Source: Candidatus Zhuqueibacterota bacterium (GTDB lineage: Bacteria > Zhuqueibacterota > Zhuqueibacteria > Thermofontimicrobiales > Thermofontimicrobiaceae). Taken from it: a DNA stretch of 64,000 nt. A model generated the notes under the pieces. That model had not been told where the DNA came from, made no database searches, and was given only the letters and a program-made list of their open reading frames with translations. The translations under genes were made by a program, and so were the position numbers. How positions within the stretch are numbered: position 1 is the first letter of the stretch; every line of letters starts with the position of its first letter. Location of the stretch: NCBI GenBank assembly GCA_049322915.1, contig JBMOPW010000027.1, positions 1,558 through 65,557 on the forward strand, in the 5' to 3' direction. Shown piece by piece: positions 23,454 through 49,376 of the stretch.

Positions 23454-23484
23454 TCCCCGGCCAATCGGTCGGGGATTTTTTTTT
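23454..23484 (+). terminator. Rho-independent terminator after hsp20
   Basis: TCCCCG/CGGGGA stem followed by T9. Confidence 0.6.
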
Positions 23485-24013
23485 AGCCCAATTTCTTTTG
23501 CACGACATCGAGGAAAGTGCGGTACGCGGCATCGTCGTACAGACAAAAAATCACCGTTTCCAGACCGGTGTCTTTGCGCAGGTAATTCGCACAGGTTTCA
23601 ATCATGATATTGGCGCAGCGATCCATGGGAAAACCAAAGATGCCCGTGCTGATTGCCGGGAAGGCGATGGATTTCAATCCGTGCTCATCCGCGACTTTCA
23701 GGCTGTTCAGCGTGGCGTTTCTCAATTTGACATCTTCATTGCCTTCGCCCATGCGCGGTCCCACAGCGTGAATGACATAGCGGGCTTTCAATTTACCGCC
23801 AGTCGTCAGCACGGCGCCACCCACAAAGGTGCCTCCGAATTCGTCGCATTCCTTCTGAATGGCGGGACCGCCTTTTCGTCGAATGGCGCCGGCAACGCCA
23901 CCCCCTAATTTCAATTCCGCATTGGCAGCGTTCACGATGGCATCGGCGTCCAGTTCGGTGATGTCGCCTTTGACCAATTGAAATTCGGTGTTATGAATAG
24001 TTATGTTCACCAT
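23483..24013 (-). CDS. Macro-domain protein (O-acetyl-ADP-ribose deacetylase-like)
   Basis: GDITELDADAIVNAAN and GGGVAGAI macro-domain motifs. Confidence 0.8.
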   Translation of the reverse strand: MVNITIHNTEFQLVKGDITELDADAIVNAANAELKLGGGVAGAIRRKGGPAIQKECDEFGGTFVGGAVLTTGGKLKARYVIHAVGPRMGEGNEDVKLRNATLNSLKVADEHGLKSIAFPAISTGIFGFPMDRCANIMIETCANYLRKDTGLETVIFCLYDDAAYRTFLDVVQKKLG

Positions 24014-24039
24014 GTTACCTCCTTGTTGCAGGGACGCGG

Positions 24040-24411
24040 CTAACGGGGAATCAGGATTGGCCTGCGGTTTTCATCCACTGCGACGTAGGTGATTTCGGCG
24101 CTGGTCACCTGAACCTCGCGGGAAGGATCATCGTAACGGTTGGCCTTTACATCCACCGCAATGGTGATGGACGTTGAGCCCAGGTGAATTGTCTTTGCGT
24201 AAAAGGAAACCTGATCCCCAACAAAAACCGGTTTATGGAATTCGACCTTGTTCATGGCGATGGTGACGAAATTTAGCGCTGCTGTTTTCCGCGCTTCCAA
24301 AACGCCGGCAATATCGAGATAAGAAAGGATGACGCCGCCAAATACAGTCCCGTAGCGATTGGTATCTTTCGGCATGGGCATCACTCGAAGTACAGGAATT
24401 TGCTCGCTCAT
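24040..24411 (-). CDS. Acyl-CoA thioesterase (hotdog fold, YciA-like)
   Basis: 123 aa. GTVFGG hotdog motif. Confidence 0.7.
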
Positions 24412-36048: not shown

Positions 36049-36795
36049 ATGGCTCTCCAAAAGACAGATGCAGTGGTATTGAAGACCCAGCGATTGGGTG
36101 AAACGAGCAAGATACTCACGCTGTTCTCGCGCCACTCCGGCAAGATCAAAGTCGTGGCCAAGGGAGCGCGAGGCCTGAAGAGCCGATTCTTCGGCAACCT
36201 GGAGCCGTTGAATCACATCTGGATTCTGTATTATTACAAAGAGACGCGCGATCTGCATCTGCTCAGCCAGGCGGATATCATTCACCCATTTTTGGAGTTG
36301 CGCAACGATCTCACCAAGATTGCATTGGGCACGCTGTTCTGCGAGATGATTTATCGCACCCAGTTGGAGCAGCCGAATTTTGCGCTGTACCAGGCGCTGG
36401 TGGATGCATTGACCGGCATCGACGCTGCGAAGAAAGATGTCCTGAATTATTATTACTGGTTCATGTTGAAGTTCCTGCACATCAGCGGGTTCCAGCCCCG
36501 TTTCGATTATTGCGACGTATGCCGGACGCGCGAACTGGAGGGGCAATTTCGGTTTTCGATTCCCGATGGCAAATACTATTGCCGGAATTGTCGCGCCCCG
36601 GAACCGAGCGCTGTTTCAGTGAGCGCCCGCGCCCTGTGGTTCCTGCGGAAATTCCAGCGAATACCGGTTCAGGAAATTGATAAATTGCCGGACACCGCGC
36701 CCCGGGATTGCGAGACCCTGCTGATTTCATTTTTACATTTTCATGTCGAAGAGACTAAGTTTTTAAACTCGTTGAAATTTTTGAAGCAGATATGA
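36049..36795 (+). CDS. recO: DNA repair protein RecO
   Basis: N-terminal OB fold and C-terminal Cys4 zinc motif (CDVC..CRNC). Confidence 0.85.
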   Translation: MALQKTDAVVLKTQRLGETSKILTLFSRHSGKIKVVAKGARGLKSRFFGNLEPLNHIWILYYYKETRDLHLLSQADIIHPFLELRNDLTKIALGTLFCEMIYRTQLEQPNFALYQALVDALTGIDAAKKDVLNYYYWFMLKFLHISGFQPRFDYCDVCRTRELEGQFRFSIPDGKYYCRNCRAPEPSAVSVSARALWFLRKFQRIPVQEIDKLPDTAPRDCETLLISFLHFHVEETKFLNSLKFLKQI

Positions 36796-36953
36796 ACCTG
36801 GCAGATTCCCGATCCAATCTCCGCGCTAGCCGGAGAAATCGATTGATTCGGGATTTTACGCACAAAGAATAGAATATCATGTTAGCCCTTACATAATATC
36901 TTTATTATTCAGCATTAATTTTGATGCAATTGTATTTAGAAGGTAAATTCTTC

Positions 36954-37571
36954 ATGAAACGAATTCAAGTATTTAAATTTTTTATTCAATATATCTTGCC
37001 AGTGGGTGCTATAGTTTTATCGATAGTGAGTTTACGCTATTCGTGTCAAAGCAATGAGATTGCTGAACGCAGCTTAAAACTAAACATTAAACCTATTATA
37101 CGTGCTGATCTTATTGTTGATAACTTTAAAAGAGACTATTTATTAAGAATCGTTAATGAAGGCAAGATTTCAGTTGAGGATTTACAAATTAAACAGTTGG
37201 CTAACCTTTTGAATGAAAGCCAACGAGATATTTTAATTAGAATTGACTCTAAACGCAACTGGCAACAGATAGATAAGCTTAATCCTGGTGACAGTATTGA
37301 ATTTAAAATAAAATACGAAGAAATAAAAAACACAAATATATTAAGAGAACAAGTAAGTGAAAATGACAGTGTACTTCCAATTCATTTTTACAATATCACC
37401 TATCATCACCCAGTTGATAAAACTTTATATGAATTAAATAAGTATCTTTTTTTATATTATAATCCAATATATGGCGGATTTTTAGCAATTGATCCAGATG
37501 CTTTTCATTTTGAAGATCAGATTGAACTTCGACATTATCTTGATACATTAAAAAATCGAAAATTACATTAG
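36954..37571 (+). CDS. Hypothetical membrane-anchored protein in AT-rich island
   Basis: ORF in a ~28% GC island with an N-terminal TM helix (FKFFIQYILPVGAIVLSIVSL). No recognisable domain. Confidence 0.45.
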   Translation: MKRIQVFKFFIQYILPVGAIVLSIVSLRYSCQSNEIAERSLKLNIKPIIRADLIVDNFKRDYLLRIVNEGKISVEDLQIKQLANLLNESQRDILIRIDSKRNWQQIDKLNPGDSIEFKIKYEEIKNTNILREQVSENDSVLPIHFYNITYHHPVDKTLYELNKYLFLYYNPIYGGFLAIDPDAFHFEDQIELRHYLDTLKNRKLH

Positions 37572-37631
37572 CAATTGAATTCGAATGTAAACTTAATTAA
37601 TTATTTTGAACAATAACTATAAAATAAGAAA

Positions 37632-38189
37632 TTGAGTAGACAAATGAAAAGAAATCTATTCCTATTGTTTTTCTTCCTTTTTCCAAATATCATTTTATCT
37701 CAACAATATGTTCAGCTTTCACAAGATGCTACCTCTCTTTTTGGTCTTAAGAATTTTCAAATTTTTGTTGAAGATTTAGATAATAGTATAAAATTATTGG
37801 GTATAAATCAAAATACATTGAAAACTGATATTGAATTAAAATTAAGATCATCAGGTATAAATCCTATTCCTAACATGGAAAATAAATACCCAGAATCAAA
37901 AATTCCTATATTATATATTAAAGTTCAAATTACTAAATTCCAACCTGCTAACTACACCGAGCCTATATTCTTTTTTTATATATCATTAGAACTACTACAA
38001 TCTGTGATATTAGATCGCAATATTGAAAAATCAAATTTCTCTAATGTCAAATTGTTTCATGTAGCTACGTGGCGGGAAAATATTCAAGGATATGTAGGGT
38101 CATCTAATTTATCTCAGATAAGAGATGTAGCAAAAGATTTAGTTGATAAATTTTCAAACGATTATCTAATGATGAATTCCAAGAAATAA
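37632..38189 (+). CDS. Hypothetical secreted protein in AT-rich island
   Basis: Signal peptide (LFLLFFFLFPNIILSQQ). No recognisable domain. Same AT-rich island as the 36954-37571 gene. Confidence 0.45.
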   Translation: MSRQMKRNLFLLFFFLFPNIILSQQYVQLSQDATSLFGLKNFQIFVEDLDNSIKLLGINQNTLKTDIELKLRSSGINPIPNMENKYPESKIPILYIKVQITKFQPANYTEPIFFFYISLELLQSVILDRNIEKSNFSNVKLFHVATWRENIQGYVGSSNLSQIRDVAKDLVDKFSNDYLMMNSKK

Positions 38190-38624
38190 TTTAACATCGC
38201 AGGGGTATAACTTTCAGTGCACTTGACTGATGGGCGGGCACTGGAATCCAGAAAATTTGTGCATTAATTTAAAATCTGATTTTGTAGGAACGATCAGTGT
38301 GTTAAATGCCCATCAGCAAGTGATCGTTTCGTCAACCTTTGAATAGCACACGGATGAATTTTGCATCTGGAAATCTTCATGTGCGTCATTCATCTGCCAT
38401 GAAGACGCCGGGGCGCCAGGCCTGACTGGAGCAGAATGTAATTCATGAACGAAAATAAATGCACCAGGAGCAGTTATACCGCACTGATTTTTGTATTTAA
38501 ATCTCACAGCGGCTTCGAGACCTCGCGGCTAAAATTCAGTTGTGGATCCGAAACAGCCGCCAATCGATATCACAAAAAGGATAGAACACATTAAGTTACA
38601 CATCAACCTGTAAGCAGAAAGAGT

Positions 38625-39956
38625 GTGAGGCAAAAAATGAAAGTGATGAAAAACGATCTCATGGAAAAAATTGTTTCGCTGTGCAAACGAAAGGGCTACA
38701 TCTTTCAATCCAGTGAAATTTATGGCGGCATCACCAGTTGCTACGATTACGGTCCTCTGGGGATTGAGTTGAAGCGCAATCTGAAGGATATGTGGTGGCG
38801 GAGCATGGTTCAGTATCGCGATGATGTTGAAGGGCTGGACGCAGCCATTTTGATGCATCCGCGGGTGTGGGAAGCATCCGGCCACGTGGAGGGTTTCACA
38901 GATCCGCTGGTGGATTGTAAAAAATGCAAGCATCGATTTCGAACGGATCAGCTCGACGATCCCGGCAAATGCCCGGATTGCGGCGGCGAATTGACCGAGG
39001 AGCGCCAGTTCAATCTGATGTTCAAAACCCACATGGGCCCGCTGGAAGAGCAGGCATCCATTGTCTATCTGCGGCCGGAGACAGCCCAGGGAATTTATGT
39101 CAATTTTCTCAACGTGCAGATTGCATCGAGGCAGAAAATACCCTTCGGCATCGCCCAGATCGGCAAGGCGTTTCGAAATGAAATTACGCCCGGCAATTTC
39201 ACATTCCGCACCCGGGAATTCGAACAGGCTGAAATGCAGTTCTTTGTCAAGCCGGGGACGGATAAAGAATGGTTCGATTACTGGCGGGAAGAGCGCATGA
39301 AATGGTATCATTCGATTGGAATTACCCGGGAGAAGCTGCGGTTCCATCAGCACAGCAAGACCGAATTGGCGCATTACGCATCCGATGCCTATGATATCGA
39401 ATACCAATTTCCGTTCGGCACCATGGAATTGGAGGGAATTCACAATCGAACGGACTTTGATTTGAAGCGGCACACGGAATATTCCGGGAAAGATATGTCC
39501 TATTTCGATGATACGACCCGGGAGCGCTACATTCCGTACATCATCGAAACCTCCGCTGGCGTGGACCGAACCCTGCTCACCTGTCTGGTGGACGCCTATG
39601 AAGAGCAGGTACTGGAGAAAGATACGCGGGTGGTGCTGCATTTGTCGCCCAGGATCGCCCCGATTAAAGCCGGCGTGTTTCCGCTGGTGAAACGCGATGG
39701 CATGCCGGAGCTGGCGATGAACATCGTGAATAACCTGCGCCCGCATTTCAACGTGTTCTACGATGATGGCGGCGCTGTGGGAAGACGCTACCGTCGCATG
39801 GATGAAGTCGGCACTCCGTTCGGCATCACTGTGGATTCGCAATCGCTGGAAGATCAGACTGTGACCATCCGGGATCGCGATACGATGTTGCAGGACCGCG
39901 TGGCCATTGACAGGATCAAAGATTATATGAATGATAAAATTTTGTTCAACCAGTAA
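38625..39956 (+). CDS. glyQS: Glycyl-tRNA synthetase (class II, dimeric GlyQS type)
   Basis: Class II aaRS motifs 1-3, C-terminal anticodon-binding domain, zinc-knuckle insertion. Confidence 0.9.
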   Translation: MRQKMKVMKNDLMEKIVSLCKRKGYIFQSSEIYGGITSCYDYGPLGIELKRNLKDMWWRSMVQYRDDVEGLDAAILMHPRVWEASGHVEGFTDPLVDCKKCKHRFRTDQLDDPGKCPDCGGELTEERQFNLMFKTHMGPLEEQASIVYLRPETAQGIYVNFLNVQIASRQKIPFGIAQIGKAFRNEITPGNFTFRTREFEQAEMQFFVKPGTDKEWFDYWREERMKWYHSIGITREKLRFHQHSKTELAHYASDAYDIEYQFPFGTMELEGIHNRTDFDLKRHTEYSGKDMSYFDDTTRERYIPYIIETSAGVDRTLLTCLVDAYEEQVLEKDTRVVLHLSPRIAPIKAGVFPLVKRDGMPELAMNIVNNLRPHFNVFYDDGGAVGRRYRRMDEVGTPFGITVDSQSLEDQTVTIRDRDTMLQDRVAIDRIKDYMNDKILFNQ

Positions 39957-42878: not shown

Positions 42879-43487
42879 TTAATCGAATGCCATGTCAGTC
42901 TTCCAGACTTCCCAGACTTTGCCGACAAGGTTTGGCCCTGGCGTGAGGATCATTTTTCCGGGCTTCCAACCGGATGGGGTCGCCTCAGTCCCCTTGCTCT
43001 TTCTGACCAACTGAAATGCCTGAATTTGCCGGAGCGTTTCATTGACGTTGCGACCGACCGGAGGAGTGAGCACTTCGAACGCCTGAACAACGCCGTCGGG
43101 ATCAATGAGGAATCGCCCCCTGGTTTCGACGCCGGCATTGTCATCGTAGATACCGTACACCGCGCCTACTTTTCCGCCGGCATCGGATAACATTGGAAAT
43201 GGTATGCCGCCTTTGACCATTTTGGATAATTCATGATCGTTCCACATTTTATGCACAAACATGCTGTCAATACTCATCGATAATACTTCAACACCGAGTT
43301 TTTGGAATTCGTTAAATTTCTCAGCAACTGCTGATACTTCAGTCGCTCAGACAAAGGTGAAATCACCGGGATAAAAACAGAGAACGACCCATTTTCCGAG
43401 ATAATCCGATAATTTCACATTGATGAACTTCCCCTTGTGATAGGCAGGGGCTACAAAATCTGGCGCTTTCTGTCCGACTTTAATCAT
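42879..43487 (-). CDS. Selenocysteine-containing peroxiredoxin (AhpC/Prx family), in-frame TGA at 43347-43349 read as Sec
   Basis: Two same-frame ORFs are separated by a single TGA exactly at the peroxidatic Cys codon: ..YPGDFTFV-[TGA][11 protein letters not shown].. versus Prx FTFVCPTE. The Prx fold continues to the C-terminus. GGAGG RBS lies 8 nt before ATG 43487. Resolving Cys is absent (ATPSGW instead of VCPANW). Confidence 0.7.
43321..43334 (-). other. Candidate bacterial SECIS-like hairpin
   Basis: mRNA UCAGC-AGUU-GCUGA hairpin starting 12 nt 3' of the UGA. The loop contains G and U. The short stem alone is weak evidence. Confidence 0.3.
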
Positions 43488-43836
43488 TTTAGATGCCTCC
43501 GTTTTAATGGTTTTTTCTTCAGTTGGTTTGTCTGGCGCCGGTTCACCGACCGGCCCGCCGGTTGGTCGAGCACAACCGGCTTTGACTTCCTCATCCATAG
43601 TCAATCTCCTATTTTATTGGTAAATGGTTAATGGAGAATTAGTTCGCTGTAATCAGTCGAATGAGTGAATTATAACATCAGAGTTAATTTTCAAATGGAG
43701 CGCTTTCCCTTTGCGGAGAACATTTAGCCGATTCAAGGAGGGAACGCATGTCATAATTTGCAGTCAGCGATGGACGTTGCTCTTTCAGATAATCGGCAGA
43801 ATGATTGGAAATCAATAATCGAACAAGGTTGAGAAA

Positions 43837-48394: not shown

Positions 48395-48455
48395 TAACGT
48401 TAAAATTATCTTGAAGTTCACGTGAGTGAGTACAGCCACAGAAAAAAGGATCATT

Positions 48456-49376
48456 ATGGCCATTCCGGACTATCAGACGATTCTGCTTCCTTTGCTCAAA
48501 TTCTTGGGCGATGGTGAAATGAAATCATCCTCCGAGACTTCCGAAAAACTTGCTGATGAGTTTAGATTGAGTGAAGAAGAAAGAAAAGCATTGCTCCAAA
48601 GTGGGCAGCAGTCAATTTTTGTGAATCGTATTGCCTGGGCGAAAGTATATCTCAAAAAAGCCGGATTGATTGAATCACCCAAGAGAGGTTGCTATAGAAT
48701 AACCGAATTGGGTGAAAAAGTTCTGAAAGAAAATCCTTTAAAAATCGATAATGCCTTCCTGACCCAATTTGAAGATTTTAATAGATTTTGGACGAGGCAA
48801 CATGCTGTAAGAAAGAAGGGAGATGAGACTGAATTGGGACCTGATTTATCCAATGACAAAACTCCTGAAGAATTTCTTGAAATTGGATATCAAAAGATAC
48901 AATCAGACCTTATATCAGAAATTTTGAAAAATATCAAGACTTGCTCGTCAACTTTTTTTGAGCGACTTGTTGTTGAATTACTGGTAAAAATGGGATACGG
49001 AGGATCACTTTCCGACGCTGGTAAAACAGTTGGCAAAAGTGGGGATGGCGGGATTGATGGAATAATAAAAGAAGATCGCCTGGGTTTGGATATTATTTAT
49101 ATACAAGCAAAGCGTTGGGAAAATACCGTTCATAGGCCAGAGATTCAAAAGTTCGCCGGTGCGCTACAAGGGCAACGCGCGAAAAAGGGAATTTTTATCA
49201 CAACATCCGATTTTTCAAATGGGGCAAAAGATTTTGTTTCGTCAATTGAAAGCAAAATTGTATTGATCGACGGAGAGCAGCTTGCAAAGTTCATGATCGA
49301 TTATGATATTGGTGTCAGTAGTGTGGCAACTTATGAAATTAAGAGGATTGATTCAGATTATTTTCTTGAAGAATGA
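48456..49376 (+). CDS. mrr: Mrr-family type IV restriction endonuclease
   Basis: Mrr_N winged-helix region (IPDYQTILLPLLKFL) and Mrr_cat PD-(D/E)xK domain (GDGGIDGI..IYIQAKRW). Lower GC than flanks. Confidence 0.75.
   Translation: MAIPDYQTILLPLLKFLGDGEMKSSSETSEKLADEFRLSEEERKALLQSGQQSIFVNRIAWAKVYLKKAGLIESPKRGCYRITELGEKVLKENPLKIDNAFLTQFEDFNRFWTRQHAVRKKGDETELGPDLSNDKTPEEFLEIGYQKIQSDLISEILKNIKTCSSTFFERLVVELLVKMGYGGSLSDAGKTVGKSGDGGIDGIIKEDRLGLDIIYIQAKRWENTVHRPEIQKFAGALQGQRAKKGIFITTSDFSNGAKDFVSSIESKIVLIDGEQLAKFMIDYDIGVSSVATYEIKRIDSDYFLEE

What the first reader, a model, noticed from the sequence alone, without database searches (positions are those of the whole stretch)
36880..38330. AT-rich (~28% GC) two-gene island inserted between recO and glyQS
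Composition drops sharply from ~55% to below 30% GC across ~1.4 kb. The island carries two ORFs (36954..37571 and 37632..38189) with no recognisable domains. The first has a single N-terminal TM helix and the second a cleavable signal peptide. The insertion interrupts the conserved recO-glyQS neighbourhood, consistent with horizontal acquisition of a small cell-surface or secreted two-protein cassette, possibly a toxin/immunity or phage-defence module. No integrase, tRNA or direct repeats mark the edges.
Basis: seen in the sequence. Interest (0 to 1): 0.65.

Follow-up and report, generated by a model that had tools for sequence, protein, structure and literature searches.

The report
AT-rich islet carrying stranded mobile-element cargo
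A 1.35-kb stretch of foreign, very AT-rich DNA sits between recO and glyQS in an uncultured Zhuqueibacterota (KSB1) genome, and one of its two small envelope-targeted genes belongs to a large, unnamed family of secreted proteins usually carried next to the integrase of temperate phages and integrative elements. This is an ordinary kind of event, with one modestly interesting protein family attached.

Summary
GC falls from about 0.51-0.53 to 0.27 over about 36870-38200, the strongest composition outlier in the 64 kb. The dip contains two real genes. The three closest relatives (RecO 71-77% identical) have recO directly followed by glyQS, so this is an insertion. It starts just 3' of a terminator-like hairpin after recO. 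There is no integrase, tRNA or convincing terminal repeat.

ORF1 (205 aa, N-terminal membrane anchor) has no detected homologue. ORF2 (181 aa, signal peptide) is not an orphan. An exhaustive HMMER search found 1,907 cluster representatives, none covered by Pfam, NCBIfam, PHROGs or PADLOC. Its AlphaFold model (pLDDT 87) has the two-layer alpha/beta core of LptE, PelC and TraT, but the family lacks lipoboxes.

Family members lie within 0.3-3.5 kb of a recombinase in six loci. They also occur in four IMG/VR viral contigs and in temperate Myxococcus phage Mx9 (p92, mislabelled "HNH endonuclease"). The one close ORF2 homologue (70% identity, dN/dS 0.08) has an unrelated upstream gene, so the two genes are not an obligate pair.

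Best reading: stranded phage or integrative-element cargo of the "moron" type that acts in the periplasm. No evidence supports a toxin/immunity or known defence system. ORF2's biochemical function is inferred, not shown.

The parts
36049..36795 (+). recO, the native left flank
   Evidence: Pfam RecO_N and RecO_C, E 7e-23 and 4e-25. The NCBI name is 'DNA repair protein RecO, Candidatus Zhuqueibacterota bacterium'.
36799..36864 (+). Terminator-like hairpin after recO. The core stem is 36807-36812 paired with 36848-36853, followed by TTTT at 36854-36857. It is native DNA with normal GC, and the islet begins just 3' of it.
   Evidence: RNA fold -22.5 kcal/mol, z = -2.2, with 4 of 200 shuffles folding as well. 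The 50-nt block 36801-36850 has GC 0.54. The consensus terminator scan did not call it because the T-run is too short.
36870..38200 (.). AT-rich inserted islet, GC 0.27
   Evidence: Composition and tetranucleotide outlier. Absent between recO and glyQS in L003, L005 and L006, where the spacers are 338, 264 and 138 bp against 1,841 bp here. The same junctions appear in an independent Logan assembly, L002, with 0 mismatches over 11,527 nt.
36954..37571 (+). ORF1, 205 aa: an N-terminal membrane anchor (about residues 8-27) followed by a soluble part. No homologue was detected.
   Evidence: ORF. Only a self-hit among 5.8 billion proteins. No hits in Pfam, PADLOC, PHROGs, NCBIfam, PDB, phages, plasmids, viral contigs or metagenome contigs. 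Kyte-Doolittle peak 2.16 at residues 9-27. GC1/2/3 = 0.42/0.23/0.20. The single-sequence AF2 model is unusable, pLDDT 37.
37644..38189 (+). ORF2, 181 aa (alternative TTG start at 37632): a Sec signal peptide and a mature domain of about 160 aa. It belongs to a large uncurated family with an LptE/PelC/TraT-like alpha/beta core.
   Evidence: 70%-identical homologue P0003. dN/dS 0.08. 1,907 representatives at E<=1e-3 and 307 at E<=1e-10. AF2 pLDDT 87.2, pTM 0.79. Foldseek PDB hits: LptE 3e-5, 5tse, CT253, PelC, TraT, CsgG, DUF330.
38190..38211 (+). Short 3' tail still homologous to the L001 copy. It ends at the shared motif GGTATAAC (38204-38211), which marks the right end of detectable homology.
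   Evidence: blastn homology covers window 37690-38211 and L001 743-1265 at 74% identity. Alignment. The motif occurs once per strand in the window, at 38204 and as its reverse complement at 38473. This is a weak lead only.
38212..38636 (.). Spacer upstream of glyQS, GC about 0.4-0.45. Presumably native promoter or leader DNA.
   Evidence: No Rfam family, including no T-box. No copy elsewhere in the window. Not alignable to the relatives' spacers. No recombinase remnant.
38637..39956 (+). glyQS-type (class II, dimeric) glycyl-tRNA synthetase, the native right flank
   Evidence: Pfam tRNA-synt_2b and HGTP_anticodon. A 439-aa orthologue lies directly after recO in the relatives.

Best explanation
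About 1.35 kb of DNA from an AT-rich donor lineage was inserted into the recO-glyQS spacer of one Zhuqueibacterota (ex-KSB1) genome. The insertion lies immediately downstream of recO's terminator-like hairpin and upstream of the glyQS leader, so it disrupts neither gene.

The islet carries two genuine protein-coding genes whose products leave the cytoplasm. ORF1 is a membrane-anchored protein with no detected homologue. ORF2 is a Sec-exported periplasmic protein.

ORF2 belongs to a large, unnamed family of proteins of about 170 aa. The family combines an SPI-type signal peptide with a two-layer alpha/beta core (beta-alpha-beta-beta-beta-alpha) resembling LptE, PelC and the TraT core. Elsewhere this family is typically cargo of temperate phages and integrative elements. 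It usually lies within a few hundred bases to 3.5 kb of the integrase or serine recombinase, which is the classic position of lysogenic-conversion or 'moron' genes.

The islet is therefore best read as a stranded fragment of such cargo, either left after deletion of the rest of an element or acquired by illegitimate recombination.

Inferred mechanism for ORF2: it acts in the periplasm by binding an envelope glycan or an outer-membrane machine, as other proteins with this fold do. This would change the cell surface in a way that benefits the lysogen, most plausibly by blocking entry of competing phages or elements.

Shown here: the insertion, its foreign composition, the coding status of both genes, purifying selection on ORF2, family size, the fold resemblance and the mobile-element contexts.

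Inferred, not shown: periplasmic location, the binding target, an exclusion role, and how the DNA got in.
For: - Insertion. Relatives with RecO 71-77% identical have recO followed directly by glyQS.
- Foreign composition. GC 0.27 against 0.51, z = -5.3, GC3 0.19-0.20 against 0.58-0.68, and the top tetranucleotide outlier.
- Real genes. The stop-free run is 224 codons against a maximum of 142 in 2,000 shuffles. ORF2 against its 70% homologue gives dN/dS 0.08 with saturated dS, and both copies are AT-rich, so AT-richness is a long-standing property of the donor lineage.
- Assembly. Identical junctions appear in a separate Logan assembly.
- Family. 1,907 representatives, with no curated model. 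117 of 119 members have non-lipoprotein signal peptides.
- Fold. pLDDT 87. LptE, PelC, TraT, CsgG and DUF330 are top PDB matches, E 3e-5 to 5e-2. The TraT core fold is described as LptE-like and shared with binders of anionic oligosaccharides (PMC12658005).
- Contexts. A recombinase lies 272-3,420 bp away in L008, L011, L012, L013, L018 and L020. Four IMG/VR viral contigs carry members. Temperate Myxococcus phage Mx9 p92 is a member, hhalign probability 99.75%. L010 is transposase-rich. The member gene has lower GC than the rest of its locus in 11 of 11 loci.
- Not a fixed pair. Upstream partners differ everywhere.
Against: - No integrase, att-like direct repeat, tRNA or recombinase remnant is present at the islet. 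The link to a mobile element rests on the contexts of distant family members (about 30-38% identity), not on this copy.
- Two family members (L015, L016) sit alone among chromosomal genes. The family is therefore not exclusive to mobile elements.
- The contexts examined were chosen for long contigs and are few (13).
- No viral structure matched significantly.
- No experiment or annotation bears on function.
- ORF1 is wholly uncharacterised.
- Signal-peptide cleavage and expression were not tested.
Confidence: 0.6

Rival explanations
1. This is a two-gene toxin/immunity or anti-phage defence module. The secreted ORF2 would be an effector and the membrane-anchored ORF1 its immunity or sensor partner.
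For: The two genes are adjacent, on the same strand and 60-72 nt apart, and both products are envelope-targeted. They arrived together in foreign DNA. Defence and toxin genes are often AT-rich islets. ORF1's lack of homologues fits fast-evolving conflict genes.
Against: Neither protein nor any of 119 family members gives a meaningful PADLOC hit. No toxin, nuclease, peptidase or pore domain was found. The close ORF2 homologue is paired with an unrelated cytoplasmic Zn-ribbon-like protein. No ORF1-like gene lies beside any other family member. The ORF2 fold is a binding or scaffold fold, not a known toxin fold.
Confidence: 0.07
2. The islet is an assembly artefact. AT-rich DNA from another organism was wrongly joined into the MAG contig.
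For: The source is a metagenome-assembled genome. The composition contrast is extreme, no mobility signatures are present, and the islet is seen in a single sample only.
Against: Both flanks continue a gene order conserved in relatives. A chimera would therefore need two false joins 1.35 kb apart that return to the same locus. An independent Logan assembly of SRR32167788 gives the identical sequence across both junctions, 0 mismatches in 11.5 kb. A related genome (L005) has its own AT-rich islet at another spacer of the same block.
Confidence: 0.03
3. ORF2 is a host envelope housekeeping factor, for example a soluble LptE- or PelC-like component of glycan export, acquired as a functional replacement rather than as mobile-element cargo.
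For: The best structural matches are LptE and PelC. Some family members are chromosomal singletons. ORF2 is under strong purifying selection.
Against: ORF2 has no lipobox and no cysteine, unlike LptE and PelC. It does not match their Pfam families. No lptD or pel genes lie nearby. The gene is absent from the closest relatives at this locus. Most contexts examined are phage or integrative elements.
Confidence: 0.06
4. The genes are native, fast-evolving lineage-specific genes. Their AT-richness would reflect local mutation bias or low expression rather than transfer.
For: No mobility genes are present. Intergenic regions in this lineage are generally AT-richer than genes.
Against: Relatives lack the genes at this locus. 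A GC3 of 0.19 against 0.6-0.68 is far beyond within-genome variation here. ORF2's nearest homologue lies on a different AT-rich contig with different neighbours. The wider family spans many unrelated contigs and phages.
Confidence: 0.03

Closest known systems
Phage 'morons' and lysogenic-conversion genes located next to the integrase or att site of temperate phages and integrative elements. Examples from general knowledge: lambda bor and lom, P22 gtr and sie genes, and integration-proximal prophage defence genes of mycobacteriophages.
   Same: These are small accessory genes whose composition differs from their surroundings. The family member had lower GC in 11 of 11 loci. They are variably present and lie 0.3-3.5 kb from the recombinase in six loci. 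Their products are envelope-targeted.
   Different: In the window the cargo is stranded, with no phage, integrase or att site. No promoter or terminator bracketing was demonstrated. No phenotype is known for any member.
LptE (the lipopolysaccharide-assembly lipoprotein; PDB 5ixm_D, 4rh8_A)
   Same: LptE is the best structural match for the ORF2 model, with two helices packed on an antiparallel sheet. Foldseek E 3e-5 to 1e-4, probability 1.0.
   Different: Sequence identity is only 7-10% and TM only 0.37-0.47. ORF2 has no lipobox or cysteine, does not match LptE's Pfam model, and has no lptD or leuS/holA neighbourhood. It is mobile rather than core.
TraT, the surface-exclusion lipoprotein of F-like plasmids (PDB 9fsm, 9fs5, 9e2v)
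   Same: TraT is an accessory protein encoded by a mobile element that acts in the envelope. Its globular core has the same LptE-like fold (PMC12658005). This makes it a functional analogy for an exclusion role.
   Different: TraT is a lipoprotein with two transmembrane helices and a long beta-hairpin, and it forms a decameric outer-membrane ring. ORF2 has no hydrophobic segment after the signal peptide and no lipobox. The match is weak (E 4e-3 to 1e-2, TM 0.30-0.35).
PelC, CsgG, and PqiC-like (DUF330) periplasmic-face lipoproteins
   Same: They share the two-layer alpha/beta fold class, have envelope locations, and bind glycans or partner machines.
   Different: They are lipoproteins encoded in dedicated operons, and several form rings. 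None of these features was seen or could be tested for ORF2.
Classical genomic islands or islets
   Same: The islet has deviant composition and codon usage. It is absent from relatives and carries hypothetical genes.
   Different: It is only 1.35 kb long and has no integrase, tRNA target or direct repeats.

Membership tests
Horizontally acquired genomic islet | Composition and codon usage deviate from the host genome | tested here: met
   GC 0.27 against 0.51, z = -5.3. GC3 0.19-0.20 against 0.58-0.68. Top tetranucleotide outlier.
Horizontally acquired genomic islet | Absent from the orthologous locus of close relatives | tested here: met
   recO is directly followed by glyQS in L003, L005 and L006, with spacers of 138-338 bp.
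Horizontally acquired genomic islet | Mobility signatures: integrase, tRNA target, flanking direct repeats | tested here: not met
   No tRNA in the window. No convincing flanking repeats. No recombinase remnant.
Phage or integrative-element moron (applied to the ORF2 family) | Located in mobile elements and variably present | tested here: met
   Members lie in Mx9, in four IMG/VR contigs, and in L008, L018 and L020 with integrases, PrimPol, Gam, Rep_O and DnaB. L010 is transposase-rich. L015 and L016 are chromosomal.
Phage or integrative-element moron (applied to the ORF2 family) | Nucleotide composition differs from the surrounding element | tested here: met
   The member gene has lower GC than the rest of its locus in 11 of 11 loci, by 0.009 to 0.153.
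Phage or integrative-element moron (applied to the ORF2 family) | Own promoter and terminator; expressed from the prophage | tested here: inconclusive
   The consensus scans are no better than shuffles. One TAnnTTTG motif at 36916 equals the chance expectation. No expression data are available.
LptE family | Sequence match to the family model | tested here: not met
   No Pfam or NCBIfam hit for ORF2 or for 119 relatives. No PDB sequence hit.
LptE family | Lipoprotein signal (lipobox cysteine) | tested here: not met
   ORF2 has no cysteine. Only 2 of 119 family members have a lipobox-like motif.
LptE family | LptE-like two-layer alpha/beta fold | tested here: met
   Foldseek 5ixm_D E 3e-5 and 4rh8_A E 1e-4, but TM only 0.37-0.47.
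TraT surface-exclusion protein | Lipoprotein with two membrane-spanning helices and a beta-hairpin inserted in the core | tested here: not met
   There is no hydrophobic window after the signal peptide and no lipobox. The mature domain of about 160 aa is predicted as a plain beta-alpha-beta-beta-beta-alpha unit.
TraT surface-exclusion protein | Blocks entry of a related mobile element | not testable with these tools
   This needs superinfection or conjugation assays.
Known anti-phage defence systems (PADLOC-DB 2.0) | Match to a defence-system protein model | tested here: not met
   ORF1 and ORF2 give no hits at E<=1. One of 119 family members gave a single weak hit, E 0.003.
Toxin-immunity pair | Conserved co-occurrence of the two partners | tested here: not met
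   The upstream gene of the 70% homologue is unrelated to ORF1. No ORF1 homologue exists in any family locus.
Sec-exported protein (ORF2) | N-terminal signal peptide with a positive n-region, a hydrophobic core and a small residue at -1 | tested here: inconclusive
   The sequence MKRNLFLLFFFLFPNIILS/QQ and the aligned signal peptides across the family fit the pattern, and there is a Kyte-Doolittle peak at residues 5-23. No dedicated predictor was run and no experiment exists.

The most novel reading that the evidence does not exclude
The ORF2 family (at least 1,900 clusters at 50% identity, with no Pfam, NCBIfam or PHROG model) is a widespread, unrecognised class of periplasmic proteins encoded by prophages and integrative elements. 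On this reading it uses a soluble LptE/TraT-like core to bind an envelope glycan or outer-membrane machine and exclude superinfecting phages or elements. It would be a non-lipoprotein counterpart of TraT-type surface exclusion, testable in the culturable Myxococcus xanthus / phage Mx9 (p92) system.
Probability: 0.2. Interest if true: 0.6.

Novelty: new member of a known kind. Interest (0 to 1): 0.33.

Why it matters
The islet itself is a routine example of small-scale horizontal gene transfer. It shows that foreign AT-rich DNA can lodge between a terminator and the next promoter in a conserved housekeeping block without any visible integration machinery. A related genome carries a different AT-rich islet at another spacer of the same block.

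The more useful product is the ORF2 family. It is large, confidently folded, secreted, and sits near the integrase of mobile elements, yet no curated database covers it. One member in a cultured temperate phage (Mx9 p92) is currently mislabelled as an HNH endonuclease. If the family proves to mediate exclusion or envelope remodelling, it would add a new family to the lysogenic-conversion repertoire and give annotation to thousands of hypothetical proteins.

Tried and rejected
Searches that found nothing for ORF1:
- The word-indexed search of 5.8 billion proteins returned only the protein itself.
- No hits in Pfam, PADLOC, PHROGs, NCBIfam, PDB sequences, phage or plasmid tblastn, or viral and metagenome contig scans.
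- A local phmmer search against 399 neighbouring ORFs of family loci found nothing.
- The single-sequence AF2 model was unusable, pLDDT 37. It was not used for a fold search.

Pattern-based locus searches:
- Scans with ORF2 plus P0003 (alignment A2) found nothing in viral, genome or metagenome contigs.
- RecO alone found nothing in genome contigs.
- Only the exhaustive HMMER search and the 119-sequence alignment recovered relatives.

Insertion boundaries:
- I tried to fix exact boundaries by aligning spacers with relatives. The spacers are too diverged, with only 8-10-nt chance matches.

Terminal repeats:
- I looked for terminal inverted or direct repeats. Only a weak pair was found, 38193-38212 and 38472-38491 at 15 of 20 matches, sharing GGTATAAC with the end of homology in L001.
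- A gapped 9-of-13 resemblance near 36881 was judged possibly chance and is not claimed.

Other checks:
- No regulatory RNA or T-box lies upstream of glyQS.
- The 3' tail after ORF2 does not form a significant terminator, z = -0.5.
- No integrase remnant lies between ORF2 and glyQS. A weak hit at 23873-24058 falls inside a 176-aa ORF (23483-24013) that reads as a macro-domain protein by eye and was not domain-searched.
- The small genes downstream of family members (L008 84 aa, L013 85 aa) have no counterpart in the window.
Full report
**1. The observation**

The composition drop is real and sharp. In 300-nt windows GC falls from 0.53 at 36450 to 0.22-0.29 between about 36850 and 38100, then climbs back to 0.53 by 38700. 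At 50-nt resolution the last host-like block is 36801-36850 (GC 0.54) and the first one on the right is 38201-38250 (GC 0.52).

The stretch 36880-38200 has GC 0.27 against 0.508 for the whole window. Outside this region no 300-nt window falls below 0.34, and the minimum lies 5.3 sd below the rest. The region is also the strongest tetranucleotide outlier, with an L1 distance of 0.79 against a median of 0.26.

ORF2 most likely starts at the ATG at 37644, giving 181 aa as in the NCBI record and in the family alignment.

Both ORFs are real genes:
- The longest stop-free run is 224 codons. In 2,000 shuffles of the islet the mean was 65 and the maximum 142.
- GC1/GC2/GC3 are 0.42/0.23/0.20 for ORF1 and 0.36/0.24/0.19 for ORF2, against GC3 of 0.58-0.68 in rsmA, mgtE, recO and glyQS.

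Pfam confirms RecO on the left and a class-II GlyRS on the right. The window contains no tRNA and no Rfam family. No convincing repeats bracket the islet.

**2. Source organism and assembly**

Both proteins are identical to entries from an NCBI MAG named 'Candidatus Zhuqueibacterota bacterium', on a 69-kb contig. This phylum is the former candidate division KSB1, in the FCB superphylum (PMC11683472).

A separate Logan assembly of run SRR32167788 (L002) contains recO-ORF1-ORF2-glyQS. It is identical to the window over 11,527 nt. A double mis-join that returns to the same conserved locus is therefore unlikely. Read-level proof was not obtainable here.

**3. The islet is an insertion**

The three closest RecO relatives are 77%, 76% and 71% identical. 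All have mgtE-recO-glyQS, with recO-glyQS spacers of 138, 264 and 338 bp (L006, L005, L003). The spacer here is 1,841 bp.

The relatives' spacers cannot be aligned with each other or with the window. The boundaries are therefore defined by composition alone.

The 85 nt after recO fold into a stable hairpin followed by TTTT (-22.5 kcal/mol, z = -2.2). The AT-rich DNA begins just after it. The insert thus lies between recO's probable terminator and the glyQS leader, a position that harms neither gene.

A related genome (L005) has its own 1.27-kb islet of 23% GC. It carries a 170-aa multi-pass membrane protein with no Pfam match, between tatD and rsmA. These two genes are 18 bp apart in the window. 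Small AT-rich inserts therefore recur in this conserved block.

**4. ORF1**

ORF1 has a hydrophobic N-terminus (Kyte-Doolittle 2.16 at residues 9-27) followed by about 175 residues of mixed character.

It has no detectable homologue in any resource tried. Its single-sequence model is unusable, pLDDT 37. It remains a membrane-anchored protein with no detected homologue.

**5. ORF2**

*Close homologue.* The word-indexed search found only one relative, P0003 (70% identity), on a 1.45-kb AT-rich Logan contig, L001.
- Nucleotide homology covers window 37690-38211 (74% identity). It ends about 20 nt after the stop codon.
- The pair gives dN/dS = 0.08 with saturated dS, and both copies have GC3 of about 0.2. 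ORF2 is therefore under strong purifying selection, and its lineage has long been AT-rich.
- The gene upstream of P0003 is a 193-aa Zn-ribbon-like protein unrelated to ORF1. ORF1 and ORF2 are therefore not a conserved pair.

*Wider family.* An exhaustive HMMER search with the two-sequence profile found 1,907 cluster representatives at E<=1e-3 and 307 at E<=1e-10. Nearly all are 160-185 aa and match end to end.
- A 119-member alignment (A3) has nearly invariant positions L32, G34, G53, D62, E64, L65, L67, R68, G71, I72, L90, Q119, L123, T142, W143, R160, D168, F170, N172, L175 and N178.
- No member matches a curated family in a meaningful way.
- There is no PDB sequence relative.
- 117 of 119 members carry signal peptides without a lipobox, and ORF2 has no cysteine.

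*Structure.* With A3 as input, AlphaFold gives pLDDT 87.2 and pTM 0.79. The model is a signal helix followed by a beta-alpha-beta-beta-beta-alpha two-layer sandwich.
- Foldseek against the PDB returns LptE (E 3e-5), an Acinetobacter LptE-like lipoprotein, CT253, PelC, TraT, CsgG and a DUF330 protein.
- TM-scores are moderate (0.35-0.52). This is a fold-level resemblance, not family membership.
- The TraT structure paper describes this core as LptE-like and shared with proteins that bind anionic oligosaccharides (PMC12658005).

**6. Where the family lives**

| Locus | Context | Distance from family member to recombinase |
|---|---|---|
| L008 | PrimPol, Mu Gam, HTH, methyltransferase, Rep_O-like | 1.2 kb (integrase) |
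| L018 | Two integrases and a PriCT/AAA_25 primase | 3.1 kb |
| L020 | Element with excisionase-type HTH, DnaB/AAA_25 and HicB, bounded by an integrase and an integrase fragment | 3.4 kb |
| L012 (IMG/VR viral contig) | Tyrosine integrase | 272 bp |
| L013 (IMG/VR viral contig) | Serine recombinase | 309 bp |
| L011 (IMG/VR viral contig) | Integrase, DnaB, Rep_O | 3.0 kb |
| L014 (IMG/VR viral contig) | Neighbours not annotated | not determined |
| L010 | Transposase-rich | none identified |
| L017 | Run of small hypothetical genes | none identified |
| L015, L016 | Singletons among chromosomal genes | none identified |

Among cultured phages, the temperate Myxococcus phage Mx9 encodes a member, p92 (hhalign probability 99.75%, E 2.7e-27). 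It is annotated 'HNH endonuclease' but has a signal peptide and no HNH domain. The real HNH protein is its neighbour p93.

In 11 of 11 loci the member gene has lower GC than the rest of the locus.

Neighbouring genes are variable small secreted or membrane proteins. Only an 84/85-aa Cys-motif protein is shared, between L008 and L013.

This is the profile of recombinase-proximal accessory cargo, the 'moron' or lysogenic-conversion type.

**7. Interpretation**

The islet is most likely a stranded piece of such cargo from an AT-rich donor. It may be a remnant of an element whose other parts were deleted, or a fragment captured by illegitimate recombination. No recombinase remnant or att-like repeat survives, so the route of entry stays inferred.

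ORF2 is predicted to be exported by Sec and to act in the periplasm through a binding fold shared with LptE, PelC and TraT. An envelope-modifying or exclusion role is plausible but untested.

Nothing supports the toxin/immunity or defence-system reading.

I put about 0.85 on 'foreign islet with two real envelope-targeted genes, ORF2 from a family associated with mobile elements'. I put about 0.2-0.25 on the specific exclusion function. The overall confidence of 0.6 applies to the combined statement.

**8. Novelty and score**

Small AT-rich islets with hypothetical genes are common, so the finding as stated is ordinary.

The added value is the delineation of a large, uncurated, confidently folded family with a consistent mobile-element context and a culturable test system (Mx9 p92). 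That makes this a new member of a known kind, with interest of about 0.33.

Noticed in passing
window 42879-43604 (- strand); TGA at about 43344-43346: A peroxiredoxin (AhpC/Prx-like) reading frame has an in-frame TGA exactly where the peroxidatic cysteine should be...[19 protein letters not shown]... The frame continues for another 156 codons. A hairpin (GCGACTG-AAGTATCAG-CAGTTGC) starts 1 nt after the TGA, like a bacterial SECIS element. This is probably a selenocysteine-containing peroxiredoxin rather than a pseudogene. No Sec machinery or tRNA-Sec is present in the window.
   Followed up: partly
window 48426-49376 (+): The second-lowest GC patch of the window (0.34-0.40) contains a 316-aa ORF. 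Its C-terminal motifs (GDGGIDG ... IYIQAKRW) look like an Mrr-type restriction endonuclease. This was recognised by eye only and no domain search was run.
   Followed up: no
L005 2396-3661 (Logan SRR16297628, relative with RecO 76% identical): This is an independent islet of 23% GC and about 1.27 kb, with a 170-aa multi-pass membrane protein that has no Pfam match. It sits between tatD and rsmA, which are 18 bp apart in the window. Small AT-rich inserts therefore recur at different spacers of the same conserved block in this lineage. L006 also has about 0.9 kb of 25-28% GC after glyQS, containing only tiny ORFs.
   Followed up: partly
L019 2884-3429 = Myxococcus phage Mx9 OQ709411.1 50067-50612, gene Mx9_p92 (WFG54199.1): This gene is annotated 'HNH endonuclease' but has a signal peptide, no HNH domain in Pfam, and a full-length match to the ORF2 family (hhalign probability 99.75%). 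The neighbouring p93 is the real HNH/HTH protein. The label is probably an annotation carry-over.
   Followed up: yes
L008 6562-6816 and L013 6529-6786: A conserved small secreted protein of about 85 aa lies immediately downstream of the ORF2-family gene in two unrelated elements. The two copies are 51% identical over the C-terminal 51 aa, with the motif TVYIT.TG..YH...C...(18-21 aa)...CS.C.PP. It has no counterpart in the window.
   Followed up: partly
window 38193-38212 and 38472-38491: An imperfect inverted repeat (15 of 20 matches) brackets about 300 bp of the ORF2-glyQS spacer. Its core GGTATAAC / GTTATACC occurs only once per strand in the 64 kb. The same GGTATAAC marks the end of homology with the L001 copy of ORF2. 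It could be a recombination or element-end motif, or chance.
   Followed up: partly
L010 8001-9230 (P0271, 409 aa): One family member carries the ORF2-like domain as the C-terminal third (residues 271-408) of a longer protein. It lies in a region rich in transposases, a methyltransferase and an ankyrin-repeat protein. The domain can therefore be fused to other modules.
   Followed up: no
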